A DNA stretch of 64,000 bases from positions 2,842-66,841 of the forward strand of contig JAADDX010000054.1 in NCBI GenBank assembly GCA_013153685.1, in the 5' to 3' direction. The DNA comes from Campylobacterota bacterium. Lineage in GTDB: Bacteria > Campylobacterota > Campylobacteria > Campylobacterales > JAADDX01. Made by a program: the position numbers and the translations under genes. The notes beneath the pieces were generated by a model. That model was not told where the DNA came from and searched no databases. It saw only the letters and a list, made by a program, of their open reading frames with translations. Shown one piece after another: positions 35,047 through 50,423 of the stretch (position 1 is its first letter; the number at the start of each line of letters is the position of its first letter).

Positions 35047-35056
35047 TTCTCCTTAT

Positions 35057-35680
35057 CTAATACACGTAATTCAATACTTCTTTTAGATCTTTTTTATCTA
35101 TTATCACATTGGCTGCTTTTTTGAGCACATCTTTAGCACAAAATGCCACCCTTGTATCAGCATACTCAAACATACTCAAATCGTTTGCACCATCACCACA
35201 CACAAACGTATCTTCTTTTGATATCCCAAGTATGTGCTGCAATCTTTGCAACATATCACCTTTGGAGTAATTAAACATCATATCTCCGCCTACAAGCCCT
35301 GTAAGAATACCATCTTTAGCATGAAGTATATTTGCAAAATCAGCATCAAATCCTAACTGTTCTTTCGCGTATGAAGTAGCCACTCTAAAACCACCACTAA
35401 AACACACCACAGTATAACCTAGTTTTTTTAATTGGGAAATAGTCTCCTTTGCTCCTGGCATAAAAGGGAGGTTATGAGCTATTTTTATAATTTCCTCTTC
35501 TTTTAGACCCTTTAAGAGTTGAACTCTCATAATCAAACTCTCAAAAAAATCAATCTCTCCAGCCATAGCCTTGGCTGTCAAAGACGCTACTTTATCTTGG
35601 AGTCCAAGTGCCTTAGCAAACTCATCTATCGTCTCTCCATCCATCAAAGTCGAATCAAAATCAAACACTGCTAATTTCAT
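35057..35680 (-). CDS. serB: Phosphoserine phosphatase (HAD family)
   Basis: 207 aa with HAD motif I LAVFDFDSTLMDGE, a SGG region and GDGANDLSM. Confidence 0.85.
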   Translation of the reverse strand: MKLAVFDFDSTLMDGETIDEFAKALGLQDKVASLTAKAMAGEIDFFESLIMRVQLLKGLKEEEIIKIAHNLPFMPGAKETISQLKKLGYTVVCFSGGFRVATSYAKEQLGFDADFANILHAKDGILTGLVGGDMMFNYSKGDMLQRLQHILGISKEDTFVCGDGANDLSMFEYADTRVAFCAKDVLKKAANVIIDKKDLKEVLNYVY

Positions 35681-35715
35681 GAAAAACCTTTAAACGAATA
35701 AAAGGAAATAAATCC

Positions 35716-37047
35716 TTATATTCCTGTAGATACAAATACTGGAGCTGCAAAGATACCAAAATAAATAGTTCCAGCCAAAAGAATAAGTTGTCCTAATAAA
35801 CTACCTGGTGTCATATATATTTTGCTAGTATTATACCCATCCGTAGTATCAAAGTAGATATGTTTGATAACCCACGCATAATACCCCACAGATAATGCGG
35901 AATTTAACGCTGCAATAAGCACCAACGGCCACAATCCTGCATCTACCCCTGCCCAAAATGTTACGGCTTTTGAGATAAATCCAGCCATAATAGGCACACC
36001 TGCTAAGCTTAATAATTGAATTGTAAAAAATAGTGCATGAAGTGGACTTCTTTGATACAATCCTCTAATATCATCTAAAGTCTTAATATGAGCTTCTCTT
36101 CTTAGATCATTTAACAATAAAAACACACTTGTTTGCATAAAAATATACGCTACAGCCAAATATACTAATGCAGTATAACTATATCCACTTGCTATTGCAG
36201 CAAACGGAATAAGCATATACCCAGCATGTGCGATTGACGAAAATGATAAAATTTTTGCAATTTTCTTTTGAAATAATGCCATAAAATTCCCAAGTGTCAT
36301 TGTAATAATCGCAAAGAAACTAAACAATAAAACAGTTGTATTAAGGTATGCTTGTAAGAAAATATAAAATGCTTTGAATGTAGCAATTACGACTACTACT
36401 TTGATAACACTACTTAAAATAGCTGCAGCCGAATGGTTGATTTGTGCATACGCATCACCAGCCCAACCGTGCATAGGCACAATTGTCATCTTATAGAAAA
36501 TCCCAGCAAGCATAATACCTACCGCAACTAACGTAAAATTACCTCTTATTGCTATTTCCGCATAGTTAAAACTTGGTGTTACCATAGCAAATAGTGCAAA
36601 CCCTAGCAAAATAAATCCACTTGCAGTAGCCCCAGCTACAAACATTTTAATAGCACCCTCAGCGTTTAATCTACTTCTAATATTCGCACCTAGCACATAA
36701 GAAATAATCGCAATTACTTCAAATAATACAATAAACATCAAAAAGTTATTCGTCTCCAGCATAGCCATACTTGCCGCACCCAAAAATAACGTTTGTGATA
36801 CGAGCGGTCTCTCAAACCCGCTAAATGTCATCATTGTAGCTGCTAATACTATCAATACTACAATCTCTAAAAGCTGTATATCCGGTGTGAGAGTAAAATA
36901 CTCCATCGAAATACCATGCCCCATAAATACGTTAAATGCTGCAAATGCAAATGCAGCAGTTGCGATATATTTCGCAATAACGATTTTTCCTTTAAAGAAC
37001 AAAGGAACTAAAAGTCCGGCTCCTATTAATATAATCAAACTATTCAT
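35716..37047 (-). CDS. nuoN: Complex I-type subunit N (antiporter-like)
   Basis: 443 aa polytopic Mrp/NuoN-like protein, last gene of the nuo block. 1-nt overlap with nuoM. Confidence 0.85.
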   Translation of the reverse strand: MNSLIILIGAGLLVPLFFKGKIVIAKYIATAAFAFAAFNVFMGHGISMEYFTLTPDIQLLEIVVLIVLAATMMTFSGFERPLVSQTLFLGAASMAMLETNNFLMFIVLFEVIAIISYVLGANIRSRLNAEGAIKMFVAGATASGFILLGFALFAMVTPSFNYAEIAIRGNFTLVAVGIMLAGIFYKMTIVPMHGWAGDAYAQINHSAAAILSSVIKVVVVIATFKAFYIFLQAYLNTTVLLFSFFAIITMTLGNFMALFQKKIAKILSFSSIAHAGYMLIPFAAIASGYSYTALVYLAVAYIFMQTSVFLLLNDLRREAHIKTLDDIRGLYQRSPLHALFFTIQLLSLAGVPIMAGFISKAVTFWAGVDAGLWPLVLIAALNSALSVGYYAWVIKHIYFDTTDGYNTSKIYMTPGSLLGQLILLAGTIYFGIFAAPVFVSTGI

Positions 37048-38477
37048 TACATACCTCCAAACATTGCAAATGCATTATTTGCTATATCAAAGATTGGTTG
37101 AGGATATACACCAAAAAATACAATCAACACCGCATAAATACAAAGTGCCAAAAATTCTGGTTTACTCATATCAAATTTGCTTTTTGCAACAATTGGTGAA
37201 ATTTCCGCGTGGAACGCACGTCTAACTGCCCAAATCACATAACCAGCACTGATTAACGAAGCAATCGCCGCTACCGCTATCCACCATCCATAAGCTTTAA
37301 TAGCTGATACTATGATGGTAAGCTCTCCTACAAATCCCATCGTTCCTGGTAAACCAAGTGCCGCCATACCGGCTAATACGAATATCGCACTGATATAAGG
37401 TGCTTTTTGCATAATTCCACCCATCTCATCCATATACCAAGTATGAGTCTTGTGATGCACCCAACCAGCAATCAAGAACATTGGTGAGATCACCAAAGCA
37501 TGCCCTATCATCTCATAAAGTGCTGCACTCAATCCGTCATAAGTTACAGTAGCAATAGCCACCACTACAAGTCCCATGTGCGAAATTGATGAATATGCCA
37601 CCATTTTCTTAATATGTCTTTCATAAATCGCCAAGAACCCTGCAAATAATGTAGTCGTAAGACCCAATACAACCATATACATTGAAAACTGCATAGTAGT
37701 TGCCGGCATCATTTCCACTACAAATCTAATAAGTCCATACGCACCCATTTTAAGTAAAACACCAGCTAGCAATACCGAAATACTACTTGGTGCTTCCACG
37801 TGTGCATCCGGTAGCCAAGTATGAAATGGGAAAAGAGGCAATTTAGCTGCAAACCCAATAAACATAAACCACCAAATCAATACCGGAGTAGCAAGCATAG
37901 CCTCTTTAATCATAGTAAAGTCCATCTGCCCTGTTTGTTTGTAAATAAGGAAAAAACTCACAAGCATAAACATTGACGCGAAGTGAGTGTATAAGAAAAA
38001 TTTAATCGCTGCATAAACTTTTCTCTCACCTCCCCAAATACCTACCAAAAAGAGCATTGGAACAAGGGTCATCTCCCAAAAAATGAAAAACCACAAAAGG
38101 TTTGTTGTCATAAACACACCAAAAATCGGTCCCGCAAATAAGATTAGCAAAGAAAAATATGCTGCTTGCATTTTTTCTTCCCACGAAGTAAACACTACCA
38201 AAATCAACAGTGCTGCTGTTAATATCAACATAGCCACACTCAAAGCATCTACTTGCAACGTAAGTGCATAATCAAACCCCGGAACTCTCAAATAATCTCC
38301 AAGTACCAAAAATCCACCACCAACCGGTAAAGCATGGTATAAATCCACAGAGATAATCAACAATAATACAAATAATGCCAAAGCAGCCCATTTAGCCACC
38401 CATTCAGCACCCCTTGAGATAAAATACACAAACGGTGCTAGAAGCATCGGTCCAAATATCAACATTATACTACTCAT
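37047..38477 (-). CDS. nuoM: Complex I-type subunit M (antiporter-like)
   Basis: NuoM pattern: FFIFWEMTLVPM, WLPDAHVEAPSSISVLLAGVLLKMG. ATG 38477 (SD AAGGTG 6 nt upstream) is preferred over GTG 38486. Confidence 0.9.
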   Translation of the reverse strand: MSSIMLIFGPMLLAPFVYFISRGAEWVAKWAALALFVLLLIISVDLYHALPVGGGFLVLGDYLRVPGFDYALTLQVDALSVAMLILTAALLILVVFTSWEEKMQAAYFSLLILFAGPIFGVFMTTNLLWFFIFWEMTLVPMLFLVGIWGGERKVYAAIKFFLYTHFASMFMLVSFFLIYKQTGQMDFTMIKEAMLATPVLIWWFMFIGFAAKLPLFPFHTWLPDAHVEAPSSISVLLAGVLLKMGAYGLIRFVVEMMPATTMQFSMYMVVLGLTTTLFAGFLAIYERHIKKMVAYSSISHMGLVVVAIATVTYDGLSAALYEMIGHALVISPMFLIAGWVHHKTHTWYMDEMGGIMQKAPYISAIFVLAGMAALGLPGTMGFVGELTIIVSAIKAYGWWIAVAAIASLISAGYVIWAVRRAFHAEISPIVAKSKFDMSKPEFLALCIYAVLIVFFGVYPQPIFDIANNAFAMFGGM

Positions 38478-38478
38478 A

Positions 38479-40326
38479 TTACACACCTTTTACTATAATT
38501 AGAATTGCAACTACAATAATCGCAACACCAATTGCATATGTTCCGATATAATCACCAATTCTACCCGTATGTCCGATTCTAAATCCTCTAAAAATCATTC
38601 TTGCAAACGGCACCGTAGCATTTACAACCCAATCAATCATATAAGTATCAACCCATCTAAGAGCCCTTGCTATACCGTTTACTACGATGTTTTTACTAAT
38701 AAACGTAATTCCAGCTTCTACATAATATCCTCTAAATAATAATTGGTGAATAATTTGCATAAATCTATGTTTCGAAATTTTCTCAAGTAGATTCATCCCT
38801 TTTACATACAATCCTACAACAATAGCAAATAATGTCGCCATTCCAAGCAACAATCCTACAAGCAACCCTTTTACATGAGGCTCTTCAATCTCATGTCCTA
38901 CAATATACTCAACCGCATCAGTTTGATATAAAGCAATTCCAAGCGTAACAAACGCTAAAATTCCAAGAGGTAATCTAATAAAGAAATTTCCCGGTGCATG
39001 AACATGTCCCGCAATATCTTCATTTCTTGGCTCACCCAAGAAAATAAGAATCCAAAGTCTTGTAATATACGCAATAGATAAAAGCCCTGCAATAGTTACT
39101 AATGTATATACAAACGGGCTTCCATGCGTAATAGCTTCTGCAATAATCATATCTTTTGAGAAAAATCCACTAAATGGTGGCAGCCCAGCAAGAGACATAG
39201 AACCCATCGCCATGAATAACGCTACGTATGGAGCTGTCTTGATGAGACCTCCAAGCTTCCAAGCATCTTTTGTGTGGTGTGCTATATAGATAACTGCACC
39301 CGCACTTAGGAATAATAAAGCTTTGAAAATCGCATGGTTCATAAGATGAAGCATCCCTGCAGCCAAACTACCTACTCCAAGTCCTACAAACGCAATAGAT
39401 AAGTGCGACATTGTCGAATACGCAAGGATTTTCTTAATCTCTTTTTGCACCAATGCACTTGTAGCTCCAATAAATGCCGAAAGTGCTGCTACATTTGCTA
39501 CTACAAGCAACGCATCCGTATAAGCATAAAAATCAAAAAGTCTCGCTACGATATAGATACCACTATTTACCATCGTAGCACCGTGAATAAGTGCTGATAC
39601 CGTAGTAGGTCCTTCCATCGCATTCATTAACCACGGATATAGTGGAAATTGTCCAGACTTACCAACTGCTGCTAAAAAGATAAAAATAGCTGTTATAAAC
39701 GCTACTGTTTTGTCAATCTCACCAGCTTTTGCAAGACTATCTAGATCCACCATATTAATATTTCCAACAAAATATACCAAAAGCCCAATTGCGGCTAGAA
39801 GGAATATATCACCAAATCTTGTATATAAAAATGCTTGCATCCCTGCATCCGCAGCAGATTTGGTCTTAAACCAAAATGAGATGAGTAAATATGAAGCAAG
39901 CCCCATAAACTCCCAACCTGCAAATGCACCAATTAAGTCTTTTGCAATTACAAGTAAAATCATACCACCGATAAAAAACAATACTTTTGCGTAGTATCTC
40001 GGCTGATCTGGATCATCACCCATATAATCATGAGCAAAATGGATATCTGCAAACCCAAGTCCAGTCGCTATCAACAACATTACAATACTTAAATGATCTA
40101 TATAAATCCCAAGAGGTAACGTAAGATTACCGTATGCAATCCAAGTATAATCTATATCAATAGGAGTCTCTCCATAGTGCATAAATACATAAACAGATGT
40201 CCCAAACAAAATAGCCCCTACTATTTCTGCTACCCAAAAGGCTAACTTCTGGTTCATCTTTCCTAAAATAAACGCAAGTGCCGCACCTACGTATGGCAAT
40301 ATTAAATAAATACTTACACTAGTCAT
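38479..40326 (-). CDS. nuoL: Complex I-type subunit L (antiporter-like, with long C-terminal extension)
   Basis: GWEFMGLASYLLISFW and WLMNAMEGPTTVSALIHGATMV. ATG 40326 (AAGGGGG SD) is preferred over 40344. It overlaps the nuoK end by 8 nt. Confidence 0.9.
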   Translation of the reverse strand: MTSVSIYLILPYVGAALAFILGKMNQKLAFWVAEIVGAILFGTSVYVFMHYGETPIDIDYTWIAYGNLTLPLGIYIDHLSIVMLLIATGLGFADIHFAHDYMGDDPDQPRYYAKVLFFIGGMILLVIAKDLIGAFAGWEFMGLASYLLISFWFKTKSAADAGMQAFLYTRFGDIFLLAAIGLLVYFVGNINMVDLDSLAKAGEIDKTVAFITAIFIFLAAVGKSGQFPLYPWLMNAMEGPTTVSALIHGATMVNSGIYIVARLFDFYAYTDALLVVANVAALSAFIGATSALVQKEIKKILAYSTMSHLSIAFVGLGVGSLAAGMLHLMNHAIFKALLFLSAGAVIYIAHHTKDAWKLGGLIKTAPYVALFMAMGSMSLAGLPPFSGFFSKDMIIAEAITHGSPFVYTLVTIAGLLSIAYITRLWILIFLGEPRNEDIAGHVHAPGNFFIRLPLGILAFVTLGIALYQTDAVEYIVGHEIEEPHVKGLLVGLLLGMATLFAIVVGLYVKGMNLLEKISKHRFMQIIHQLLFRGYYVEAGITFISKNIVVNGIARALRWVDTYMIDWVVNATVPFARMIFRGFRIGHTGRIGDYIGTYAIGVAIIVVAILIIVKGV

Positions 40327-40627
40327 TGTATTTACCCCCTTCATCCAATTTATCTGGGATAACTTCTTTTGTGATTCTATTTGATAATAAGAATATCAAA
40401 ACTCCTGCCGCCGCTTCAAGTGTTGCAATAACTATCACGATATATGCAATAGCTAGATTTTGTGTCATACCAAAATGATACGCACTACTTGCCAATACCA
40501 AAATCACAGCATTTAAAAGCATCTCTAATGAAAAAAATATTCTCAAAAAATCAGCTTTATTCGTAACGCCGTATAACCCTATCGCAAATAAAATAATTGC
40601 GAATATCATATCTATCTCAAAACTCAT
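40319..40627 (-). CDS. nuoK: Complex I-type subunit K
   Basis: 102 aa with three TM helices and a conserved Glu in LEMLLNAV and TLEAAAG. Confidence 0.85.
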   Translation of the reverse strand: MSFEIDMIFAIILFAIGLYGVTNKADFLRIFFSLEMLLNAVILVLASSAYHFGMTQNLAIAYIVIVIATLEAAAGVLIFLLSNRITKEVIPDKLDEGGKYND

Positions 40628-41100
40628 GACAATTCCTTTTCATGCTTTAGAGTATGTAGCATTCTAATACTTCCGTATAGTAAACTAGCTCCTACCACAG
40701 CCAAGAATATCGCAACTTCGGCATAATTTTCGGTTAGAACGGTAACTTGTGCTTTTACGTTACCCGCATTCTCTACTACGTTGAAGTTTGGCATAATAAA
40801 TGGAATTACAATAAATCCAATAGCTATTAAAACAATACTTGCCACAGCCCATGGTCTTGATTTTTCTTCTGGAAATGTACTTCCTATTACCGTCACACCA
40901 AATAATACCAATACTACAATCCCACCGGTATAGACAAAAATCTGGAACAATCCAAGTAATTTTTCGTCATATCCGATATAATAAAGTCCAAGCAAAAACA
41001 TTAACAACGCAAAACTCAAAACTGCCGGAACTGTTTTTTTTACCGTAATTGAAATTACAGCCAAGATAATTACCGCTACAAGTAACAAAATACTAACCAT
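40624..41100 (-). CDS. nuoJ: Complex I-type subunit J
   Basis: Start moved to ATG 41100 (MVSILLLVAV, SD AAGGAGG 5 nt upstream). The 62-codon polybasic N-terminus in the track is the nuoI tail read in another frame. Confidence 0.8.
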   Translation of the reverse strand: MVSILLLVAVIILAVISITVKKTVPAVLSFALLMFLLGLYYIGYDEKLLGLFQIFVYTGGIVVLVLFGVTVIGSTFPEEKSRPWAVASIVLIAIGFIVIPFIMPNFNVVENAGNVKAQVTVLTENYAEVAIFLAVVGASLLYGSIRMLHTLKHEKELS

Positions 41101-41665
41101 TATTATCCTCCTTTGTAGGAGCTTCTTTACTAGCTTCCTCTTTTGCTTTTGCTTCAGCTTCGGCTTTTGCTTTTGCTTCAGCTTCGGCTTTCTTTTTGGC
41201 CGCCATCTCAGCTTTCTTTTTGGCTGCTGCCTCAGCTTTTTTTCTTTCTTCTTCTTTTTTCTTTTCGATCCAATCTTGCGGCACATCTACTCTCACCCAA
41301 AAATTATCTTGAGCTTCATGTGCTCCACCAGCTCTCATATCAAAAGTTCCACCGCTCAATTTCAATGCCTTTGGTTTGGTAGGGCATACATCCTCGCATA
41401 ATCCACAAAAAATACAAATAGCCAAATTCACTTCCGGTATCTTATTTGGTCTTTTTAATGGTAACGGTTTCATCACAATCGCATCTACGGGACAGATTTT
41501 ATTACAAGCATCACACCCCGTACAAACATCATATAAAATCTCATGCTTACCTCTAAATATTTCAGACTTATGCACGAAATCTTTGCTTGCGTCTTTGGTA
41601 GCAAGCCTATCTTCTGTCATACTTTTTGATACTCTTATCATTTTTTTTATAATATCAACTAACAT
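41093..41665 (-). CDS. nuoI: Complex I-type subunit I (2x[4Fe-4S] ferredoxin fold) with an unusual Lys/Ala/Glu-rich C-terminal tail
   Basis: Fe-S motifs CTGCDACNKICP and CIFCGLCEDVCP are present. Residues ~134-190 are KKKEEERKKAEAAAKKKAEMAAKKKAEAEAKAKAEAEAKAKEEASKEAPTKEDNNG. Confidence 0.85.
   Translation of the reverse strand: MLVDIIKKMIRVSKSMTEDRLATKDASKDFVHKSEIFRGKHEILYDVCTGCDACNKICPVDAIVMKPLPLKRPNKIPEVNLAICIFCGLCEDVCPTKPKALKLSGGTFDMRAGGAHEAQDNFWVRVDVPQDWIEKKKEEERKKAEAAAKKKAEMAAKKKAEAEAKAKAEAEAKAKEEASKEAPTKEDNNG
41141..41236 (-). repeat. Four 24-bp tandem units inside the nuoI 3' end (two identical, two imperfect)
   Basis: 41141-41164 equals 41165-41188 (ttttgcttttgcttcagcttcggc). 41189-41212 and 41213-41236 are related copies of each other (tttctttttggc[c/t]gc[c/t][a/g][t/c]ctcagc). 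They encode the 8-residue periodic AEAKAK/KKKAEXAA tail. Confidence 0.9.
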
Positions 41666-41666
41666 A

Positions 41667-42632
41667 TCAAGCTCCTAAAATATATAGTTTCGCAAAGATT
41701 ACCCAAACTATATTTAAAATCGACAACGGAACCAACCAACTCCATGCGAATTTTAACATTTGATCAAGTCTAAGTCTTGGATTTGATGCTCTAATAGCCA
41801 CCATCACCACCGCAATAAGTGCAATCTTTAGAAATAAACACCAAAAACTATCAAAAAACAATCCTCTATAACCACTAAAGAATAGCGTTACAGCAGCAGC
41901 TGATACTACCAAAATCTCGGTAAATTCAGCAAATTTAAGCAATACATAATTTGTCCCTGAGTATTCTGTATAAAATCCATATACAATTTCCTGTTCCGCA
42001 TCTGGAATATGAAACGGTGGTTGTTCTAAAATCCCAAGCATTGCAATAATAAAAATAATCGCTCCTGGCAATAAAATCAACGTCGTAAGCCAATTATTAG
42101 CATACATAATATCATGCAAATTCATTGTTCCAAATAAAATAGCTGGGCTTAATGCCGCTAAGAAGAACGGGGTCTCCATTGAGAGCATTTGAGCCAATAT
42201 TCTCATACCACCAAGAAATGAATATTTATTGTTACTACCAAATCCCGTAAGAAAGAGTAAAAACGGCTCAACACCGATTAATACAACCAATCCTAAAACT
42301 CCATATTGAGTATCCACAACCACACCATTGTGCATCCAAGGAGTCCAAGGAATCAAAACAACCGGTAACGCCGCTACTATCGGTGTGATAAGAGGAATTA
42401 CATTAAATAAATACGGATCTACACTCTTTGGTGTGATATTCTCTTTTGTTAAGAGTTTAAATACATCATACACCGTTTGTAACGTCCCAGCCGGTCCGTT
42501 AAAATGTGGTCCTACCCTTTTGTGTATCCTAGCAAGTACTTTTCTTGCAAAATAAAACACAAAAAAGGTCCATCCTAGCAAAAACAAAAGACCTGGAAAG
42601 ACCAATATCTGAAATATTATATTATTCATCAT
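41667..42632 (-). CDS. nuoH: Complex I-type subunit H
   Basis: 321 aa with ARIHKRVGPHFNGPAGTLQTVYDVFKLLTKE, matching the NuoH N-terminal loop pattern. About 8 TM helices. Confidence 0.9.
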   Translation of the reverse strand: MMNNIIFQILVFPGLLFLLGWTFFVFYFARKVLARIHKRVGPHFNGPAGTLQTVYDVFKLLTKENITPKSVDPYLFNVIPLITPIVAALPVVLIPWTPWMHNGVVVDTQYGVLGLVVLIGVEPFLLFLTGFGSNNKYSFLGGMRILAQMLSMETPFFLAALSPAILFGTMNLHDIMYANNWLTTLILLPGAIIFIIAMLGILEQPPFHIPDAEQEIVYGFYTEYSGTNYVLLKFAEFTEILVVSAAAVTLFFSGYRGLFFDSFWCLFLKIALIAVVMVAIRASNPRLRLDQMLKFAWSWLVPLSILNIVWVIFAKLYILGA

Positions 42633-42642
42633 CTCTATCTCC

Positions 42643-44292
42643 TTATCTATCTAAATCACCCTGACAAATATGCATACTTCCATAAACCAATGGAATATCA
42701 GAGAGAGTTTTTCCTCTTAAAAGTTCATCTAAAACCATCGTGTGATTCACACTTGGTGCTTTGATTTTGAGTCTATATGGGTTTGTTGCTTTCTCTTGTG
42801 TTACAAGATGCATCAAAATCTCTCCTCTTGCCCATTCGATTCTGGTTACTGCTTCACCCGCTGGCAGTTTTTTTGGTATTCTTACAAGATGGTCTTTTTG
42901 TGGATTCATCTCTCCACTTGCTATCCCTTCTTGAATTTTTGCAATAGCTTGTTTGATAATATCCATTGACTGGTCTAATTCTTTGAAAAATATATGCAAT
43001 CTATCGTAAATATCCCCATTCTCACAAGTTACATAATCAAATTCAATCTCATCATACCCTGCATAAGGCTCATCGATTCTCACATCCACTTTTACTCCAC
43101 TTGCCCTTGCAATCGGACCTGCCATGTAGTTTTGAACCACATCTTCTTTGCTGATAATAGCATTTGCTACCGCTCTTGTCTTCATAAGAGGGTTGTTAAT
43201 AAAAATATCAAAAAATTCATCCTTGCTACTTTCGTATTTCTCAATAGCCTTTTGTACAATATCCAACCATCCATCTCTTAATGGATATCTCACACCACCT
43301 GGCTCAATACACGCAGTAGCAATTCTAGCCCCACTATATTCTTCTAAAGCATCTAGGAAATATTCTCTTACATCCATAGTCCACATTACAAACGTATGAA
43401 GTCCGGCATTACCGAAAAATCCACCCATACTAATAAGATGTGATGCGATTCTACCGATTTCCCCTAATACTACTCTCATCAATTTTGCAAATCTTGTAAT
43501 CTCTTTTCCTGCAATCTCCTCAACCGCTTGAGAGTAACAAATCATAGGATTTGGATTGTCCATAAAACAAATTCTCTCAACCGCTACAATGCTCCCAATA
43601 AAATCTTTTCTTTCCACTAAATGTTCAAGTGCTCTCCAAACATATCCAATATCTGGATCCACCCATTGGATATTTTCTCCATCCACACCTACTTTCAATC
43701 TAATAGGACCGCTTGCTGGGTGTGTAGGTCCCCAGTGAAGGATAGTTTTACTTCCGTCTTTTGGCAGTGTTTTTTCATTCTCTTCGTATTCATCAAGCCA
43801 TTCGCTAGTAATTTCATCAATATTTTGGATTAAATTTTGTTCGTGAGCTTTCCAGTCAAAATCTTTTCTAAATGGAAATTTACCGTAATAATCAGCTGAA
43901 ATTAAGAAATATCTCAAATTAGGATGCCCTTCAAACTTTACTCCGAATGTAGAGTATGCTTCTAATTCATGCCAATTGGCACTTGGCATCAAAGGAGTAA
44001 TAGATGGTATTTTGCATGCTTCTAATTCTCTTGGAATATCAAATTTTAGCCATACGTTTTTTTTGTTGATAATATCTTCTAAAAAATAATTAACCTCTAT
44101 TTTATTTTCATCTATAAAATCTGTAGGCGAAACTGTTGAACATGTTTTAATACCCTCTGCTTGCAAGTCTTGCACTATACTAAGCAAGTCGTTTGGATTT
44201 GTGAATTTAGCTTTTAGCCATGTTGGTTTGTAGTCTTCTACATACTCGTTGTCATATTTTTCTAATACTTTTCTAATCGCTTCCATCATCAA
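42643..44292 (-). CDS. nuoCD: Fused complex I-type subunits C and D (NuoCD), with the D part divergent and hydrogenase-like
   Basis: 549 aa. The N-terminal ~170 aa is NuoC-like (ANWHELEAYSTFGVKFEGHPNLRYF). The D part begins HWGPTHPASGPIRLKV and ends VYGSMHICQGDLDR. Only 10 nt separate it from nuoH. Confidence 0.8.
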   Translation of the reverse strand: MMMEAIRKVLEKYDNEYVEDYKPTWLKAKFTNPNDLLSIVQDLQAEGIKTCSTVSPTDFIDENKIEVNYFLEDIINKKNVWLKFDIPRELEACKIPSITPLMPSANWHELEAYSTFGVKFEGHPNLRYFLISADYYGKFPFRKDFDWKAHEQNLIQNIDEITSEWLDEYEENEKTLPKDGSKTILHWGPTHPASGPIRLKVGVDGENIQWVDPDIGYVWRALEHLVERKDFIGSIVAVERICFMDNPNPMICYSQAVEEIAGKEITRFAKLMRVVLGEIGRIASHLISMGGFFGNAGLHTFVMWTMDVREYFLDALEEYSGARIATACIEPGGVRYPLRDGWLDIVQKAIEKYESSKDEFFDIFINNPLMKTRAVANAIISKEDVVQNYMAGPIARASGVKVDVRIDEPYAGYDEIEFDYVTCENGDIYDRLHIFFKELDQSMDIIKQAIAKIQEGIASGEMNPQKDHLVRIPKKLPAGEAVTRIEWARGEILMHLVTQEKATNPYRLKIKAPSVNHTMVLDELLRGKTLSDIPLVYGSMHICQGDLDR

Positions 44293-44295
44293 TCC

Positions 44296-44769
44296 TTAAA
44301 ACTTCATTTCTTTCCAAAGTCCGCCTTGGCTTGCGGCACTTGGTTCACCTTTTTTGATTTTTTCTTTTACTTCTTCTAGACCCGCTAATATCGCTTCTGG
44401 TCTTGGAGGACAACCTGCTACAAACACATCTGCTGGTAAAATTTCCGTCACGTTTTTAATAACGCTCGCACTATCATTATAAGGTCCCCCATCATAAGCA
44501 CAAGCACCAATAGCCACCACATAGCTAGGTTCTGGCATCTGTGCATAAGTCCTAAGAAGTGCCGGTAAAATCTTTTTACTTACAAGTCCTGTAATAAAAA
44601 TAATATCCGCTTGTCTTGGTGTAGGAGTCATTATGTATCCATATCTCTCCCAATCGTATCTTGGAGACATTGCCGCAAGCATTTCTAGTGAACAACACCC
44701 ACTACAAAAATGCACAATCCATGGGGATTTACTCTTTGCGTAATTAAAAAAATCAAGAATTTTTAGCAT
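44296..44769 (-). CDS. nuoB: Complex I-type subunit B (N2 cluster subunit)
   Basis: 157 aa with Cys ligand pattern FCSGCCSLEM, GACAYDGGPY and GCPPRPEA. Confidence 0.9.
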   Translation of the reverse strand: MLKILDFFNYAKSKSPWIVHFCSGCCSLEMLAAMSPRYDWERYGYIMTPTPRQADIIFITGLVSKKILPALLRTYAQMPEPSYVVAIGACAYDGGPYNDSASVIKNVTEILPADVFVAGCPPRPEAILAGLEEVKEKIKKGEPSAASQGGLWKEMKF

Positions 44770-45091
44770 ATCTATACTCCTTCATTGAAATAGTAACGGC
44801 TGCGAACAATAACAATCCAAATACCATCGCGATATTTAGGCTATATTCCGTATTATCAAATACAAACAAACTAAAAAATAGCCCACTCATATCAAAGATA
44901 ATAAAAGCAATTGCGAAAATAAAATACCCAAAATTTGCTTTCATAGGCACTTCACTACTTGGTGGAAGCCCACACTCAAAGTGATCATTTTTTACTTCAT
45001 TTGGTCTATATGGTGCTACCATAATACCTAGTAAATACAGTAAAAACACACCGCCTAATATTCCAAAAGCAAATATAAAAACAGTCTCCAT
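44753..45091 (-). CDS. nuoA: Complex I-type subunit A
   Basis: Start moved to ATG 45091 (METVFIFAFGILGG, SD AAGGAG 6 nt upstream) from TTG 45181. 112 aa with 3 TM helices and the FECGLPP motif. Confidence 0.8.
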   Translation of the reverse strand: METVFIFAFGILGGVFLLYLLGIMVAPYRPNEVKNDHFECGLPPSSEVPMKANFGYFIFAIAFIIFDMSGLFFSLFVFDNTEYSLNIAMVFGLLLFAAVTISMKEYRYAKNS

Positions 45092-45170
45092 ACAAAACTC
45101 CTTGTCTAATTTAGAGATTTTTATATAAAATGATAAAATAATTTTTGGATTTTTTAAAGGTTTTTGGGGA

Positions 45171-45176
45171 ATTATA
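45171..45176 (-). promoter_or_regulatory. Candidate -10 hexamer TATAAT for the nuo operon
   Basis: The minus strand reads ttttgatTATAATtcccc about 80 nt upstream of nuoA ATG 45091. Position-based guess only. Confidence 0.3.
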
Positions 45177-45196
45177 ATCAAAATTTATAAAAAGCG

Positions 45197-45209
45197 TTAC
45201 CAATGGTAA
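45197..45209. promoter_or_regulatory. Perfect palindrome TTACCA-A-TGGTAA upstream of the candidate nuo promoter
   Basis: This is a 6+1+6 inverted repeat. It ends 20 nt upstream of the candidate -10, so its centre is near -39. Confidence 0.25.
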
Positions 45210-45252
45210 TACTTTGATAGCAACGTGGAAATTATGAAACTAATATTAATTA

Positions 45253-45621
45253 TTAATCTCCCAATGCTTCTAGTATCTTTGTGTATTCTAAAGGAATGGG
45301 GGTAATTTGCCAATTTTTCAAAAACACCAATTTGATTTGTGCATGAAATAATAACTGATCTTGTTTGTAGATATCTTGCGTGATATGTGCTATGCTTTTT
45401 TTGATAGCATCTACCTTCGTATGCACATCAATCAAATCCCCAAGACGTGCGGGCAAATAAAAAGTAGCTTGTACATCTCTTACTACAAATCCATCCTCTT
45501 GGAAATAAATATTGTTTTGAAAAAACAATTCGCTTCTTGCACGCTCACAAAATGCCAAATACTTGGTATGATATACTACACCTCCCGCATCGGTATCTTC
45601 ATAATATACCCTAAATTGCAT
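45253..45621 (-). CDS. YbgC-like 4HBT hot-dog acyl-CoA thioesterase
   Basis: 122 aa with VYYEDTDAGGVVYHTKYLAFCERARSE. Confidence 0.8.
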   Translation of the reverse strand: MQFRVYYEDTDAGGVVYHTKYLAFCERARSELFFQNNIYFQEDGFVVRDVQATFYLPARLGDLIDVHTKVDAIKKSIAHITQDIYKQDQLLFHAQIKLVFLKNWQITPIPLEYTKILEALGD

Positions 45622-45629
45622 AAATCCTC

Positions 45630-46769
45630 CTAATAAAACATCTCAATTACTACATAGCTTAAAAACAACATAATGTGACTCAATCCTTCTAAGTAATTCG
45701 TCTCTCCATTATCTGTAGTTTTCCATGCCAAAATAATCGTAATAATCAATGCCCCTATTTGTAAAGGTGTAAAATCCATGGAAATATTAATACCAAACAT
45801 AATTCCCAAGAATAACACAATAGGCACAGTTATCAAAATAGAGACAGTGCTAGCTCCCATTGCGATATTTACTACTCTTTGGATTTGATTGTTTTTTGCA
45901 GCTTTAATCGCTGTAAAAAGCTCTGGTGCTACCGTAATAAGGGCGATTACAATCCCAGCAAATCCGGCAGAAAAACCAAAATCTTTTAATACCAAAATTC
46001 CGTCTTTAGCAAACACTTCACTCAAAATACCCACAAACCCTAGTAACAACACCAAAAACACACCGTTTGTTATATTGCTTCTTTTATCAAAGAAATAATT
46101 ATGTTCTTCTTGAACAACCGTGTAATTTGCTCTAAAAATTCTACTTCTTACGCTAGATCTGAAAAAATCCGTATGAGTGGTTGTCTGAAATTTGAAAATA
46201 AAAATATAAAATATCAACAACAAAACTGAGATTGCGATACTAGCATGAAATACATCAGTGGTACTATGATGACCAACTGACAAAGTAGAAGGGACAAGTA
46301 ACATAGCCGATGAAACAAACAATACGGTAGTATAACTTGATGAAGTATCTTCATTGTGGGTTTGTTCTTTGTAATTAAGCCCTCCAATAAACATAGCAAG
46401 CCCCAATAATGCGTTCAAATCGACAATAAACGTAGAAATAATCCCGTTTTTTACAGCAACCACTGCTTGGGGATTGTGAGTAGCTTCTAATAACACCATA
46501 AAAAGCAACAATATCTCCACTGCAACAGCACTGAAGGTTAGAATCAAACTTCCAAAAGGCTCCCCAAAACGGTGTGCCAAAATCTCGGCAATTTCACTAA
46601 TAGTAACAGAAATACTCCCTATGGCAATAATAGCAAAAATAGTAGTCCAAACGATAGAATATCCACGCATGTGGAAATATAAAGCCAAAATTCCAAATAC
46701 AATTCCAAAAATAATATCCCAATAATCACGCACAATATTATGACTTTGGGTATTGGTCTGCGAATCCAC
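45630..46769 (-). CDS. CaCA-family Ca2+/H+ exchanger (ChaA-like)
   Basis: 379 aa polytopic protein. Two alpha-repeat-like segments are present: GEPFGSLILTFSAVAVEILL and AGIVIALITVAPELFTAIKAA. GTG start with an AAAGGAG SD. Confidence 0.8.
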   Translation of the reverse strand: MDSQTNTQSHNIVRDYWDIIFGIVFGILALYFHMRGYSIVWTTIFAIIAIGSISVTISEIAEILAHRFGEPFGSLILTFSAVAVEILLLFMVLLEATHNPQAVVAVKNGIISTFIVDLNALLGLAMFIGGLNYKEQTHNEDTSSSYTTVLFVSSAMLLVPSTLSVGHHSTTDVFHASIAISVLLLIFYIFIFKFQTTTHTDFFRSSVRSRIFRANYTVVQEEHNYFFDKRSNITNGVFLVLLLGFVGILSEVFAKDGILVLKDFGFSAGFAGIVIALITVAPELFTAIKAAKNNQIQRVVNIAMGASTVSILITVPIVLFLGIMFGINISMDFTPLQIGALIITIILAWKTTDNGETNYLEGLSHIMLFLSYVVIEMFY

Positions 46770-46801
46770 CTATGCTCCTTTGTTGATAGAGTGATAGTGT
46801 A

Positions 46802-46810
46802 ATTTTAACA
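46802..46810 (-). promoter_or_regulatory. Extended -10-like element TGTTAAAAT upstream of the exchanger gene
   Basis: The minus strand reads TGTTAAAAT 33 nt upstream of GTG 46769. Confidence 0.35.
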
Positions 46811-46874
46811 CATTTTATAAAAAAGTTGAAGGAAATTTGAATAACAAAAGGGAGAAAGAAGAGGAAACCTTTAG

Positions 46875-47150
46875 TTACGAATGTAAAGGTTTGATTTTAT
46901 CAAATGGATTTTCTACTACGTGTTTTCTATCCACAATGTATGGTAATAAAGCTGCCGCTCTTGCTCTTTTTACCGCATTTGATAATGCTTCTTGGTGTTT
47001 TTTACAAGTTCCAGTAAGTCTTCTTGGCATAATTTTGAATCTCTCGCTAATTCCATATTTTAATACATCCAAATCTTTGTAGTCGATATGGTCTATTTTC
47101 ATCTCACAAAATTTACATCTTTTTTTTCCGTATTTTCTTTTTTCGCTCAT
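46875..47150 (-). CDS. rpsR: Ribosomal protein S18
   Basis: Start moved to ATG 47150 ([23 protein letters not shown]). [32 protein letters not shown] is present. Confidence 0.9.
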
Positions 47151-47160
47151 ATTAATTCCT

Positions 47161-50377: not shown

Positions 50378-50423
50378 AGGTGGAATTATATCACAAAAAA
50401 TATATATTAATTTAAGGAATGGG

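What the first reader, a model, noticed from the sequence alone, without database searches (positions are those of the whole stretch)
35716..45091. Complex I-type operon lacking the entire NADH-input module (nuoA-B-CD-H-I-J-K-L-M-N, no E/F/G)
Seen: ten consecutive, mostly overlapping minus-strand genes encode the membrane arm and the Q-module. The nuoCD stop (42643) and the nuoH start (42632) are 10 nt apart, so there is no room for nuoE, nuoF or nuoG where 14-gene operons carry them. No flavoprotein, ferredoxin or flavodoxin gene flanks the block. A thioesterase and a Ca2+/H+ exchanger lie upstream, and serB lies downstream.

Established: NuoEFG form the NADH-oxidising N-module. Eleven-subunit relatives (cyanobacterial/plastid NDH-1, archaeal Fpo) use ferredoxin or F420H2. 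In Campylobacter and Helicobacter, NuoE/F are replaced by two unrelated proteins and flavodoxin is the donor, but NuoG is retained.

Inference: this enzyme receives electrons from a donor encoded elsewhere, or docks it in a new way. It could also be a second, specialised complex alongside a canonical one.
Basis: partly seen in the sequence, partly recalled or inferred. Interest (0 to 1): 0.6.

Follow-up and report, generated by a model that had tools for sequence, protein, structure and literature searches.

The report
Nautiliales complex I without NADH module
This is a real ten-gene operon for a proton-pumping complex I relative that lacks the NADH-oxidising subunits; it was already described in Nautilia vent bacteria, and its acceptor pocket lacks the usual quinone-binding residues, so its real substrates remain untested.

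Summary
Window 35716-45091 (minus strand) carries nuoA-B-CD-H-I-J-K-L-M-N, tightly packed, with no nuoE/F/G in the operon or anywhere in the 64 kb.

The organism is a Nautiliales (Campylobacterota) MAG. The same 10-gene operon is present in every related locus long enough to show it.

It is not new. Campbell et al. 2009 reported the partial NUO of Nautilia profundicola. Degli Esposti 2015 named it 'NUO10', called it an ancestral form, and noted the odd NuoD residues.

I verified those residues here:
- NuoD lacks the quinone-binding His38 (deleted) and Tyr87 (Phe).
- NuoD keeps two relic [NiFe] cysteines, the same two as in the sulfur-reducing MBS complex.
- NuoB has a hybrid CxxCC motif that includes complex I's tandem cysteines.
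- NuoH and NuoL/M/N/K are clearly complex I-type, with pumping residues conserved.

Most likely it is a reversible ferredoxin (or flavodoxin):menaquinone oxidoreductase coupled to proton translocation. A non-quinone acceptor such as sulfane sulfur is not excluded.

One small new observation: all Nautiliales NuoI carry a long K/E/A-rich helical C-terminal tail.

Interest is modest and novelty low.

The parts
44753..45091 (-). nuoA (112 aa)
   Evidence: Pfam PF00507. The ATG at 45091 is preceded by AAGGAG. Relatives align from this Met. Asp79 (E. coli numbering) is kept and Glu81 is Ser.
44296..44769 (-). nuoB (157 aa), carrier of the proximal 4Fe-4S cluster
   Evidence: PF01058; NCBIfam NuoB at 181 bits is above its cutoff. 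All four E. coli N2 ligands are conserved (C25, C26, C90, C120), plus an extra C22. The best PDB hit is MbsJ (6u8y_J) at 142 bits, against 138.7 for mitochondrial PSST.
44689..44712 (-). NuoB motif HFCSGCCS (CxxCC)
   Evidence: Invariant in 17 Nautiliales NuoB and present in the Aquificota relative. An archaeal relative has CIACC. It combines the hydrogenase/MBS CxxC with the complex I tandem CC.
42643..44292 (-). nuoCD fusion (547-549 aa)
   Evidence: PF00329 plus PF00346. It is 100% identical to the deposited P0001. It scores below NCBIfam's NuoD equivalog cutoff (327.5 bits against 360).
43690..43731 (-). NuoD beta1-beta2 loop GPTHPASGPIRLKV, with the His38 equivalent deleted
   Evidence: Alignments to NDUFS2, E. 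coli NuoCD and validated T. thermophilus Nqo4. The deletion is present in 121/121 Nautiliales and 14/14 Aquificota sequences. The loop has the same length as in MbsL.
43558..43575 (-). NuoD motif RICFMD (Cys at Nqo4 position 86, Phe at position 87)
   Evidence: Cys and Phe are invariant in 121 Nautiliales and 14 Aquificota sequences. The Cys corresponds to MbsL C85.
42643..42678 (-). NuoD C-terminus SMHICQGDLDR (Cys at Nqo4 position 403) plus stop codon
   Evidence: The Cys is invariant. By its position six residues from the C-terminus it corresponds to MbsL C385.
41667..42632 (-). nuoH (321 aa)
   Evidence: PF00146 at 287 bits. PDB scores: NdhA 161, Nqo8 159.5 and E. coli NuoH 155 bits, against MbsM 62 and MbhM 54. 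Most conserved charged residues are kept; Glu36 is Ala and Glu216 is Asp.
41093..41665 (-). nuoI (190 aa), 2x[4Fe-4S], the likely electron entry subunit
   Evidence: Two complete CxxCxxCxxxCP motifs. Fer4 Pfam families and sub-threshold NuoI models match. PDB scores are similar for MbsN (45), HycF (45), NdhI (42) and Nqo9 (40).
41093..41278 (-). NuoI C-terminal K/A/E-rich tail (61 aa plus stop codon)
   Evidence: Composition is 17 K, 17 A, 14 E, net charge +2. AlphaFold2 predicts one helix over residues 130-179 at pLDDT 83-91. A conserved motif is present in all 15 Nautiliales NuoI and absent in the Aquificota and archaeal relatives.
40624..41100 (-). nuoJ (158 aa)
   Evidence: PF00499. The ATG at 41100 has an AAGGAGG Shine-Dalgarno. 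Relatives align only from about this point. Tyr59 is kept.
40319..40627 (-). nuoK (102 aa)
   Evidence: PF00420. Glu36 and Glu72 are conserved. The gene is also present in a contig carrying the exact N. profundicola NuoCD.
38479..40344 (-). nuoL (621 aa), antiporter-like subunit with a C-terminal extension
   Evidence: PF00361 plus PF00662; TIGR01974 at 419 bits is above its cutoff. E144, D178, K229, H254, K342, K399 and D400 are all conserved against E. coli.
37047..38486 (-). nuoM (479 aa)
   Evidence: TIGR01972 at 416 bits is above its cutoff. E144, K234, K265, H322 and E407 are conserved.
35716..37047 (-). nuoN (443 aa)
   Evidence: PF00361; NuoN models match best but below their cutoffs. 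K158, K217, K247 and K395 are conserved. The TM5 Glu lies three residues upstream of the aligned position.

Best explanation
[quoted passage not shown] This is the form the literature calls the partial NUO or 'NUO10'.

Shown:
- It has no NADH-oxidising module.
- NuoI and NuoB keep all Cys ligands for three [4Fe-4S] clusters.
- NuoH, A, J, K and the three antiporter-like subunits L, M and N keep nearly all the charged residues used for proton pumping.
- NuoD lacks the canonical quinone ligands.

Inferred mechanism:
1. A low-potential soluble carrier, most likely ferredoxin and possibly flavodoxin, docks directly on the exposed NuoI/NuoCD surface. That is where NuoG sits in 14-subunit enzymes.
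2. Electrons pass over the two NuoI clusters to the NuoB cluster.
3. From there they reach an acceptor in the pocket formed by NuoB, NuoD and NuoH. The acceptor is most likely menaquinone, bound in a non-canonical way.
4. The reaction is coupled to proton translocation through the complex I-type membrane arm.
5. It is probably reversible. With H2 or formate reducing the menaquinone pool, the proton motive force could drive menaquinol-to-ferredoxin electron flow to feed the reductive TCA cycle.
For: Gene content and order:
- Family matches for all ten genes.
- The same 10-gene operon occurs in all 15 Nautiliales loci that extend through nuoN. The two truncated loci agree as far as they reach. 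It also occurs in a contig carrying the exact N. profundicola protein.

Donor and N-module:
- No NuoE/F/G, ferredoxin or flavodoxin in the window.
- No redox partner gene is conserved beside the operon in relatives.

Cofactor ligands:
- Eight Cys in NuoI.
- The four N2 ligands in NuoB.

Pumping residues against genuine E. coli sequences:
- NuoL 7/7, NuoM 5/5, NuoN 4/5 (the Glu is shifted), NuoK 2/2.

Membrane arm type:
- NuoH scores about 160 bits to Nqo8/NdhA and 62 to MbsM.

Menaquinone availability:
- A futalosine-pathway gene lies at 17484-18347.
- The Desulfurobacterium relatives contain MK-7.

Ferredoxin link:
- Nautilia uses ferredoxin-dependent rTCA enzymes and ferredoxin-coupled hydrogenases.
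- In an Aquificota relative an echABCDEF hydrogenase operon sits 210 nt upstream of the homologous nuo operon, on the same strand.
- Ferredoxin is the donor proposed for other N-module-less enzymes.
- Bacteroides NUO without NuoEFG contributes no NADH:quinone activity.

Selection:
- Strong purifying selection: NuoB is 88-96% and NuoH 78-91% identical across the order.
Against: - No biochemical data exist for this enzyme in any Nautiliales or Desulfurobacteriales.
- The acceptor pocket lacks His38 and Tyr87. Asp139 is variable (T/N/A). These residues bind and protonate the quinone headgroup in complex I.
- NuoH lacks the Glu36 equivalent.
- NuoD instead carries the two cysteines retained in the sulfur-reducing MBS. 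NuoB is marginally closer to MbsJ than to any complex I NuoB in the PDB.
- These points weaken the menaquinone assignment.
- Fpo keeps the same two Cys and lacks His38, yet reduces methanophenazine. Unlike this enzyme, it retains Tyr87.
- The direction of operation in vivo is unknown. Nautilia already has Ech/Coo-type hydrogenases that can make reduced ferredoxin.
Confidence: 0.55

Rival explanations
1. The enzyme is not a quinone reductase. It is a ferredoxin-driven reductase of sulfane sulfur (polysulfide or persulfide) or of another thiol-reactive acceptor, working like the archaeal MBS complex. The difference would be a full complex I-type proton-pumping arm in place of the Mrp-type module.
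For: - NuoD shares the defining MbsL features. The His38 and Tyr87 equivalents are absent, the same two relic NiFe cysteines are kept (MbsL C85/C385), and the beta1-beta2 loop has the same length.
- Both Cys and the Phe are invariant over 121 Nautiliales and 14 Aquificota sequences that are only 45% identical overall. That suggests function rather than relic.
- The best PDB hit of NuoB is MbsJ, and NuoB keeps the MbsJ C25 equivalent.
- Carriers of this enzyme type (Nautiliales, Desulfurobacteriales) are H2-oxidising sulfur reducers.
- The sulfur-reduction route of Thermovibrio and Caminibacter is described as unresolved.
Against: - MBS catalysis is attributed to a proximal cluster with only three Cys ligands (CxxCG). 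Here the tandem CC of complex I is present and invariant, so four-Cys ligation is expected.
- In MBS the two MbsL cysteines are dispensable for activity.
- NuoH is far closer to Nqo8/NdhA than to MbsM.
- There is no Mrp-type module.
- N. profundicola already has PsrABC for quinol-dependent polysulfide reduction.
- Fpo keeps the same two Cys while reducing a quinone-like carrier.
Confidence: 0.15
2. The complex is linked to NAD(P)(H) after all, through an input module encoded elsewhere. This could be separately encoded NuoEFG-like proteins or another flavoprotein. It would run mainly in reverse to make NAD(P)H from the quinol pool, as proposed for N. profundicola in 2009.
For: - Campbell 2009 proposed exactly this.
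- In the related Desulfurobacterium thermolithotrophum, nuoGFE sits in a separate operon from nuoABCDHIJKLMN.
- Thermovibrio has one cluster with nuoEFG and one without.
- The conserved helical NuoI tail could tether a partner.
Against: - Two papers report that Nautiliales genomes lack NuoE/F/G altogether.
- None is found in this window.
- None lies beside the operon in the 17 related loci plus the N. profundicola-type contig L022.
- Bacteroides NUO without NuoEFG shows no NADH activity.
- Nothing here identifies a candidate flavoprotein partner.
Confidence: 0.12
3. It is a second, specialised complex that coexists with a canonical 14-subunit complex I elsewhere in the same genome.
For: - Thermovibrio ammonificans has both a full cluster and an EFG-less cluster.
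- Only 64 kb of this genome could be inspected.
Against: - The published Nautiliales genomes carry only the partial operon.
- Degli Esposti 2015 defines NUO10/NUO11 organisms as lacking the N-module within the genome.
Confidence: 0.05

Closest known systems
Partial NUO / 'NUO10' of Nautilia profundicola and other Nautiliales (Campbell et al. 2009, PMC2628731; Degli Esposti 2015, PMC4758237)
   Same: - Identical gene order A-B-CD-H-I-J-K-L-M-N with fused NuoCD and no NuoE/F/G.
- NuoCD is 76% identical to N. profundicola.
- Same NuoD residues (Cys86, Phe87, Cys403, no His38), as described in 2015 and confirmed here.
- Same NuoB CSGCC motif and the same NuoI tail.
   Different: - Only the flanking genes differ. 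Most Nautiliaceae have an AAA+ ATPase upstream and a TPR-like gene downstream. The window and its closest relative L001 do not.
- The window lineage is about 84-88% identical to its nearest metagenomic relatives and about 76% to named Nautilia.
- The 2009 paper listed nuoK as missing. It is present.
NUO11 of Desulfurobacteriales / Aquificota
   Same: - It is the only other 50%-identity cluster close to the window NuoD (45% identity; everything else is at or below 39%).
- Same active-site pattern: His38 deleted, Cys86, Phe87, Cys403.
- Same NuoB CSGCC motif.
- Same gene order.
   Different: - NuoC and NuoD are separate genes.
- NuoI lacks the K/E/A-rich tail.
- Position 401 is Tyr rather than His.
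- In one lineage an ech operon lies directly upstream.
- D. thermolithotrophum has a separate nuoGFE operon.
MBS, membrane-bound sulfane sulfur reductase of Pyrococcus furiosus (PDB 6U8Y; Yu et al. 2020, PMC7684303)
   Same: - The NuoD/MbsL pocket lacks the His38 and Tyr87 equivalents and keeps the same two relic Cys.
- Equal beta1-beta2 loop length.
- NuoB/MbsJ align without gaps and share the first Cys of CxxC.
- Ferredoxin-type input through a NuoI homologue.
   Different: - MbsJ has CxxCG, giving a three-Cys cluster. Here the motif is CxxCC.
- The MBS membrane part is Mrp-derived (MbsA-H, H'). Here it is NuoA/H/J/K/L/M/N.
- NuoH scores 62 bits to MbsM against about 160 to Nqo8/NdhA.
Other N-module-less complex I relatives: Bacteroides NUO, Desulfitobacterium hafniense and Chlorobium NUO11, cyanobacterial NDH-1, archaeal Fpo
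   Same: - Eleven core subunits and no NuoEFG.
- The donor is thought or shown to be ferredoxin, or F420H2 for Fpo.
- The acceptor is a membrane carrier.
- FpoD also keeps Cys86 and Cys403 and lacks His38.
   Different: - NDH-1 is a quinone reductase whose NdhH differs from MbsL at the His38/Tyr87 positions, whereas this enzyme lacks both residues.
- Chlorobium NUO11 is described as menaquinone-reactive.
- FpoD keeps Tyr87.
- NDH-1 has extra ferredoxin-binding subunits; Fpo has FpoF and FpoO.
- In my rough tree the Nautiliales form sits in a basal grade, away from canonical NuoD.
Campylobacter/Helicobacter Nuo (flavodoxin-dependent; NuoE/F replaced, NuoG kept)
   Same: - Same phylum.
- No NADH-binding NuoE/F.
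- A low-potential protein donor.
   Different: - That operon keeps NuoG and two replacement genes between nuoD and nuoG. Here nuoCD and nuoH are 10 nt apart.
- Degli Esposti 2015 classes the other epsilonproteobacterial clusters as derived from 14-gene operons and the Nautiliales one as ancestral.
Canonical complex I (T. thermophilus, E. coli)
   Same: - Q- and P-module subunit set.
- Tandem-Cys N2 ligands.
- Pumping residues in NuoL/M/N/K.
- NuoCD fusion, as in E. coli and Aquifex.
   Different: - No N-module.
- The quinone ligands His38 and Tyr87 and the Asp139 partner are missing.
- NuoH Glu36 and NuoA Glu81 are replaced.
- Seven of the ten proteins score below NCBIfam's curated cutoffs for their Nuo families.

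Membership tests
Canonical 14-subunit complex I (NADH:quinone oxidoreductase) | NADH-oxidising N-module NuoE, NuoF, NuoG | tested here: not met
   There are 10 nt between nuoCD and nuoH. tblastn of E. coli NuoE/F/G against the whole window gives nothing better than E = 1.8. No such Pfam domains occur in any window ORF.
Canonical 14-subunit complex I (NADH:quinone oxidoreductase) | Quinone headgroup ligands in NuoD (Nqo4 His38 and Tyr87, with partner Asp139) | tested here: not met
   His38 is deleted, Tyr87 is Phe and Asp139 is Asn here (T/N/A across the order). Tested by alignment to Nqo4 validated against PDB 2FUG and to NDUFS2 and E. coli NuoCD.
Canonical 14-subunit complex I (NADH:quinone oxidoreductase) | Tandem cysteines plus two further Cys ligating cluster N2 in NuoB | tested here: met
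   C25, C26, C90 and C120 align with E. coli C63, C64, C129 and C158. They are invariant in 17 relatives.
Canonical 14-subunit complex I (NADH:quinone oxidoreductase) | Membrane arm with NuoH, A, J, K and three antiporter-like subunits carrying the conserved Lys/Glu/His chain | tested here: met
   NuoL 7/7, NuoM 5/5, NuoN 4/5 (Glu shifted by 3), NuoK 2/2 and NuoJ Tyr59 are conserved. In NuoH 6/8 are identical, with Glu36 replaced by Ala and Glu216 by Asp. NuoH is closest to Nqo8/NdhA.
N-module-less 11-subunit complex I-like enzymes (NUO11/NUO10) | All eleven core subunits encoded together, without NuoE/F/G in the cluster | tested here: met
   The same structure occurs in the related Nautiliales loci and in an Aquificota locus.
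N-module-less 11-subunit complex I-like enzymes (NUO11/NUO10) | No N-module genes anywhere in the genome | not testable with these tools
   Only 64 kb of this MAG is available. Published statements for N. profundicola and for Nautiliales generally say the genes are absent.
N-module-less 11-subunit complex I-like enzymes (NUO11/NUO10) | Electron input from ferredoxin or another non-NADH donor at NuoI | not testable with these tools
   This needs enzyme assays. The only indirect hints are an ech operon next to the homologous nuo operon in Aquificota and the ferredoxin-based metabolism of Nautilia.
MBS / Mbx (membrane-bound sulfane sulfur reductase) | MbsL-type pocket: no His38 or Tyr87 equivalents, and two of the four NiFe cysteines retained | tested here: met
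   Cys242 corresponds to MbsL C85 and Cys543 to C385 (549-aa numbering).
MBS / Mbx (membrane-bound sulfane sulfur reductase) | Proximal [4Fe-4S] with only three Cys ligands (MbsJ CxxCG), giving an open catalytic Fe | tested here: not met
   The motif is CSGCC: a Cys replaces the Gly and supplies the complex I tandem ligand. This is a sequence-level test only; the actual ligation has not been observed.
MBS / Mbx (membrane-bound sulfane sulfur reductase) | Mrp-antiporter-derived membrane module (MbsA-H, H') and an MbsM anchor | tested here: not met
   The genes are NuoA/J/K/L/M/N. NuoH scores 62 bits to MbsM and about 160 to Nqo8/NdhA.
Group 4 membrane-bound [NiFe] hydrogenases (Ech, Mbh, Hyc) | Four cysteine ligands of the NiFe site (RxCGxC ... 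DPCxxC) in the large subunit | tested here: not met
   Only the first and third Cys remain (RICFMD ... HICQGD).
Campylobacter/Helicobacter-type Nuo | NuoG retained, and two unrelated genes in place of nuoE/nuoF | tested here: not met
   No gene lies between nuoCD and nuoH. There is no NuoG homologue in the window.

The most novel reading that the evidence does not exclude
This enzyme, with its Desulfurobacteriales sister, may be a living intermediate between the sulfur-reducing MBS and complex I. It would be a ferredoxin-driven proton pump with a full complex I membrane arm, whose acceptor site does not use a quinone. That site is built from an invariant Cys-Phe...Cys pocket in NuoD and a CxxCC cluster motif in NuoB. 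It would instead reduce sulfane sulfur or another thiol-reactive substrate, or use ligand switching between CxxC and CC coordination. In Nautiliales, the conserved single-helix tail on NuoI would recruit the donor or a partner.
Probability: 0.15. Interest if true: 0.75.

Novelty: already known. Interest (0 to 1): 0.3.

Why it matters
How complex I acquired quinone chemistry, and what N-module-less relatives do in strict anaerobes, are open questions. No enzyme of the Nautiliales/Desulfurobacteriales type has been purified.

If its donor is ferredoxin and it runs in both directions, it would link the quinone pool to the ferredoxin pool that drives CO2 fixation by the reductive TCA cycle in abundant vent autotrophs.

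If its acceptor is not a quinone, it would document a missing step between sulfur-reducing MBS and complex I.

As a genome-scan finding, however, the operon is a well-annotated member of a described group. It adds only confirmation, plus the NuoI tail observation.

Tried and rejected
- Source contig: looking up the contig that encodes the exact NuoCD (P0001) returned 'not on record'. The rest of the MAG could therefore not be searched for nuoE/F/G.
- Promoter and terminator scan of 34500-47500: 61 promoter-like sites against 52.5 +/- 8.6 expected, and 12 terminator-like sites against 7.3 +/- 2.9. These are not informative. The transcription unit is inferred from gene packing only.
- Forcing a printed alignment to MbsL: a search with an 81-residue NuoD fragment left MbsL ranked too low to be printed. 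Only the coordinate ranges could be used.
- Rfam and tRNA scans of the window: nothing found.
I therefore dropped a claim that a 'DRLNY' clade in my tree is the Campylobacter type.
- Neighbour-joining tree: it has no support values and serves only as a rough picture.
- AlphaFold2 of NuoI without an alignment: the Fe-S core was poor (mean pLDDT 47.7) and only the tail is interpretable.
- NuoI tail as a polycationic ferredoxin trap: rejected, because its net charge is only +2.
- AAA+ ATPase upstream of nuoA in most Nautiliaceae as an operon member: rejected, because it is absent from the window and from L001.
- My recalled E. coli numbers H228 and D329 were wrong and are not used.

Full report
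**1. What is there**

Window 35716-45091 (minus strand) holds ten tightly packed genes. Pfam and NCBIfam identify them as nuoA, nuoB, a fused nuoCD, then nuoH, I, J, K, L, M and N.

With corrected start codons the junctions are overlaps of 1-26 nt or gaps of 1-10 nt.

Three starts needed correcting:
- nuoA begins at ATG 45091, behind an AAGGAG Shine-Dalgarno.
- nuoJ begins at ATG 41100, behind AAGGAGG. The longer ORF to 41286 is the alternate frame of the lysine-rich end of nuoI.
- nuoCD probably begins at ATG 44286, which gives the 547-aa protein deposited in NCBI.

**2. Absence of the N-module and of donors in the window**

- I took the genuine E. coli K-12 nuo operon and searched NuoE, NuoF and NuoG against all six frames of the window. 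Nothing scored better than E = 1.8.
- Pfam scans of every other sizeable ORF found no flavoprotein of that kind, no flavodoxin and no ferredoxin.
- A six-frame search for CxxCxxCxxxC found only the two motifs inside NuoI.
- The window does carry a menaquinone (futalosine pathway) gene at 17484-18347.

**3. Whose genome it is, and conservation**

A scan of one genome per species returned 17 loci, mostly Nautiliales or Nautiliaceae MAGs (two are labelled Campylobacterales and one Nitratifractor). NuoCD identity to them is 70-84%.

The protein database holds the identical sequence, from an 'Epsilonproteobacteria bacterium' MAG. It also holds homologues at 70-77% identity in Nautilia profundicola, N. 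lithotrophica, Nautilia sp. PV-1, Lebetimonas and Caminibacter.

All 15 loci that extend through nuoN have the same ten genes in the same order. The two truncated loci agree as far as they reach. NuoB is 88-96% identical and NuoH 78-91%.

The flanks are not conserved with the window. Most Nautiliaceae have an AAA+ ATPase upstream and a TPR-like gene plus miaA downstream. No redox partner gene travels with the operon.

**4. It is already described**

- The N. profundicola genome paper (Campbell et al. 2009) reports that the genome has the NUO genes except nuoE, F, G (and, it says, K). It notes the same structure in Caminibacter mediatlanticus. It infers a different input part encoded outside the operon, and proposes reverse electron transport to NAD(P)H.
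- Degli Esposti 2015 names the Nautiliales arrangement NUO10 and calls it, with the Desulfurobacteriales NUO11, the most ancestral nuo form. The paper states that their NuoD keeps the first and third NiFe cysteines (Thermus positions 86 and 403) and lacks His38, Tyr87 and Asp139. It suggests an Mbx-like function.
- N-module-less complex I relatives in general are well known.
- The 2009 statement about nuoK is an annotation miss. nuoK is present here, in all complete relatives, and in a contig carrying the exact N. profundicola NuoCD.

**5. The acceptor pocket, checked on this sequence**

I recalled the T. thermophilus Nqo4 sequence and validated it as 409/409 identical to PDB 2FUG chain 4. I then aligned it with the window protein, 120 Nautiliales NuoCD sequences and 14 Aquificota NuoD sequences.

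| Nqo4 position | Nautiliales (121 sequences incl. window) | Aquificota (14 sequences) |
|---|---|---|
| His38 | deleted in all | deleted in all |
| Asp86 | Cys in all | Cys in all |
| Tyr87 | Phe in all | Phe in all |
| Val403 | Cys in all | Cys in all |
| Asp139 | variable: T, N or A (Asn in the window) | Ala |
| Asp401 | His in nearly all | Tyr |

Alignments to mammalian NDUFS2 and to E. coli NuoCD show the same replacements.

According to the MBS structure paper, MbsL likewise lacks the His38 and Tyr87 equivalents and keeps exactly two relic cysteines, C85 and C385. The coordinate ranges of the phmmer match place the window's Cys242 on MbsL C85. They also show that the beta1-beta2 loop has the MbsL length, one residue shorter than in complex I or MBH.

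**6. NuoB is a hybrid**

Its N-terminal motif is FCSGCCSLEM. MbsJ has FCTGCGGIEM and mitochondrial PSST has FGLACCAVEM. The window protein therefore has the MBS/hydrogenase CxxC and the complex I tandem CC together.

All four E. coli N2 ligands are conserved. The motif is invariant in 17 Nautiliales and is present as CSGCC in the Aquificota relative. It appears as CIACC in an archaeal relative whose NuoD also has Cys86/Phe87.

In MBS, sulfur reduction is attributed to a proximal cluster with only three Cys ligands. The extra Cys here argues, at sequence level, for normal four-Cys ligation.

The best PDB match of NuoB is MbsJ, by a small margin (142 against 139 bits).

**7. The membrane arm is complex I-type and looks functional**

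- NuoH matches chloroplast NdhA, Thermus Nqo8 and E. coli NuoH at 155-161 bits. It matches MbsM at only 62 and MbhM at 54.
- Against the genuine E. coli proteins, the residues implicated in proton pumping are conserved: NuoL 7 of 7, NuoM 5 of 5, NuoK 2 of 2 and NuoJ Tyr59.
- NuoN keeps 4 of 5, with the TM5 Glu displaced by three positions.
- NuoH keeps most of its conserved residues but has Ala for Glu36. NuoA has Ser for Glu81.
- Which residues matter is my recalled knowledge of the complex I literature. The alignment itself is a tool result.

**8. Position among relatives**

A search of 1.84 billion cluster representatives found only one nearby cluster outside Nautiliales. It is at 45% identity and is made of Aquificota MAG proteins. 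Everything else is at or below 39%.

The next-best hits are other non-canonical forms with Cys86 (an unnamed archaeal-type 11-gene operon, Heimdallarchaeota, Ignicoccus, FpoD), then hydrogenases and canonical NuoD. A rough neighbour-joining tree without support values puts the Nautiliales plus Aquificota pair in a basal grade between hydrogenases and canonical NuoD. This agrees with the 2015 paper.

In one Aquificota lineage an echABCDEF hydrogenase operon lies 210 nt upstream of nuoA on the same strand. That is a weak hint of a shared ferredoxin partner. Desulfurobacterium thermolithotrophum has nuoGFE in a separate operon, and Thermovibrio has both a full cluster and an EFG-less cluster.

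**9. A small new observation**

NuoI ends in a 61-residue K/A/E-rich tail (17 K, 17 A, 14 E, net charge +2). All 15 Nautiliales NuoI have it, with a conserved core (EEWIE.KK.EEEEKARKK.EM.AKKKAEAE) and variable length. Total protein length ranges from 163 to 208 aa. The Aquificota and archaeal relatives lack it.

AlphaFold2 without an alignment predicts one continuous helix for residues 130-179 at pLDDT 83-91. The Fe-S core is modelled poorly.

NuoI is the subunit that faces NuoG in 14-subunit enzymes and faces ferredoxin in MBH, MBS and NDH-1. A spacer or tether role in partner binding is therefore conceivable, but this is pure inference.

**10. Most likely mechanism**

Shown:
- the subunit set;
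- three complete Fe-S binding sites;
- a complex I-type pumping arm under strong purifying selection;
- no N-module;
- a non-canonical acceptor pocket.

Inferred:
- A low-potential protein, most likely ferredoxin, donates electrons at NuoI.
- Electrons reach the NuoB cluster and reduce menaquinone in the NuoB/D/H cavity.
- The reaction pumps protons and is reversible. The proton motive force could drive menaquinol-to-ferredoxin transfer for the reductive TCA cycle.

Points that bear on the menaquinone assignment:
- Phe at position 87 does not by itself exclude quinone reduction. From memory, a Tyr-to-Phe mutant of Yarrowia complex I retains activity with short-chain quinones. I did not verify this here.
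- FpoD works without His38 and keeps both Cys, although it does keep Tyr87.

I give the overall reading about 0.55. Within that, I am more confident about the non-NADH protein donor than about menaquinone as acceptor.

**11. Rivals**

- MBS-like sulfane sulfur reductase with a complex I arm (about 0.15). The MbsL-like pocket, the invariance of the two Cys and the sulfur-reducing lifestyle support it. The CC motif, the complex I-type NuoH, the dispensability of those Cys in MBS, and the presence of PsrABC in Nautilia argue against it.
- NAD(P)H coupling through a separately encoded module (about 0.12). This is the 2009 proposal and has a precedent in Desulfurobacterium. The reported genome-wide absence of NuoEFG in Nautiliales argues against it.
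- A second complex beside a canonical one (about 0.05).

**12. Verdict**

The feature is an already described member of a known group.

The residual interest lies in the untested biochemistry of its MBS-like pocket and hybrid cluster motif, and in the Nautiliales-specific NuoI tail.

Noticed in passing
window 41093-41278 (-), and NuoI in L001-L017: NuoI carries a 61-aa K/A/E-rich C-terminal tail, predicted as one long helix. It is conserved in all 15 Nautiliales NuoI, with variable length, and is absent from the Aquificota and archaeal relatives. Its alternate reading frame creates a false lysine-rich N-terminal extension of the nuoJ ORF (40624-41286).
   Followed up: partly
window 40319-40627 (-); L022 13684-13992: nuoK is present here, in all complete relatives, and in a contig carrying the exact N. 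profundicola NuoCD. The 2009 genome paper listed nuoK as missing, which looks like an annotation miss.
   Followed up: yes
L002-L017 and L022, directly upstream of nuoA (e.g. L013 7156-8889, L022 7324-9036): A roughly 570-aa protein with a winged-helix domain and a C-terminal AAA+ ATPase domain lies on the same strand just before nuoA in 14 of 15 Nautiliaceae loci. It is absent from the window and from L001, and no homologue occurs anywhere in the 64 kb.
   Followed up: partly
L020 3270-8394 and L021 279-5403: In an Aquificota lineage a six-gene Ech-type [NiFe] hydrogenase operon ends 210 nt upstream of nuoA of the homologous 11-gene nuo operon, on the same strand.
   Followed up: no
window 42546-42548 (nuoH codon 29) and 44885-44887 (nuoA codon 69): NuoH has Ala where E. 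coli has the conserved Glu36 (FARK against GERR). NuoA has Ser where E. coli has Glu81. NuoN has its TM5 Glu three residues upstream of the aligned position.
   Followed up: partly
window 50316-52511 (+) and 52522-54387 (+): Two adjacent large proteins (731 and 621 aa) each carry a FapA_N (flagellar assembly protein A N-terminal) domain, apparently a tandem pair. The first ORF as listed overlaps the divergent murJ ORF (49067-50566), so one of the two starts is over-called.
   Followed up: no
window 54940-57348 (+), 33304-35046 (-), 32391-33260 (+), 24239-24685 (+): These ORFs of 802, 580, 289 and 148 aa have no significant Pfam match. The 580-aa ORF has only a weak, sub-threshold DUF4214 hit. 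The first three also have no NCBIfam match; the 148-aa ORF was not scanned there.
   Followed up: no
window 17484-18347 (+), 23207-24115 (-), 2434-2823 (-): A futalosine-pathway menaquinone biosynthesis gene, a di-haem cytochrome c peroxidase and a small cytochrome c lie in the window. They fit a menaquinone-based, peroxide-tolerant anaerobic respiratory chain.
   Followed up: no
all ten nuo proteins: Only NuoB, NuoL and NuoM reach NCBIfam's curated cutoffs for their families. NCBI names several Nautilia orthologues 'NADH-quinone oxidoreductase subunit D-related protein', which reflects how divergent this lineage is.
   Followed up: partly
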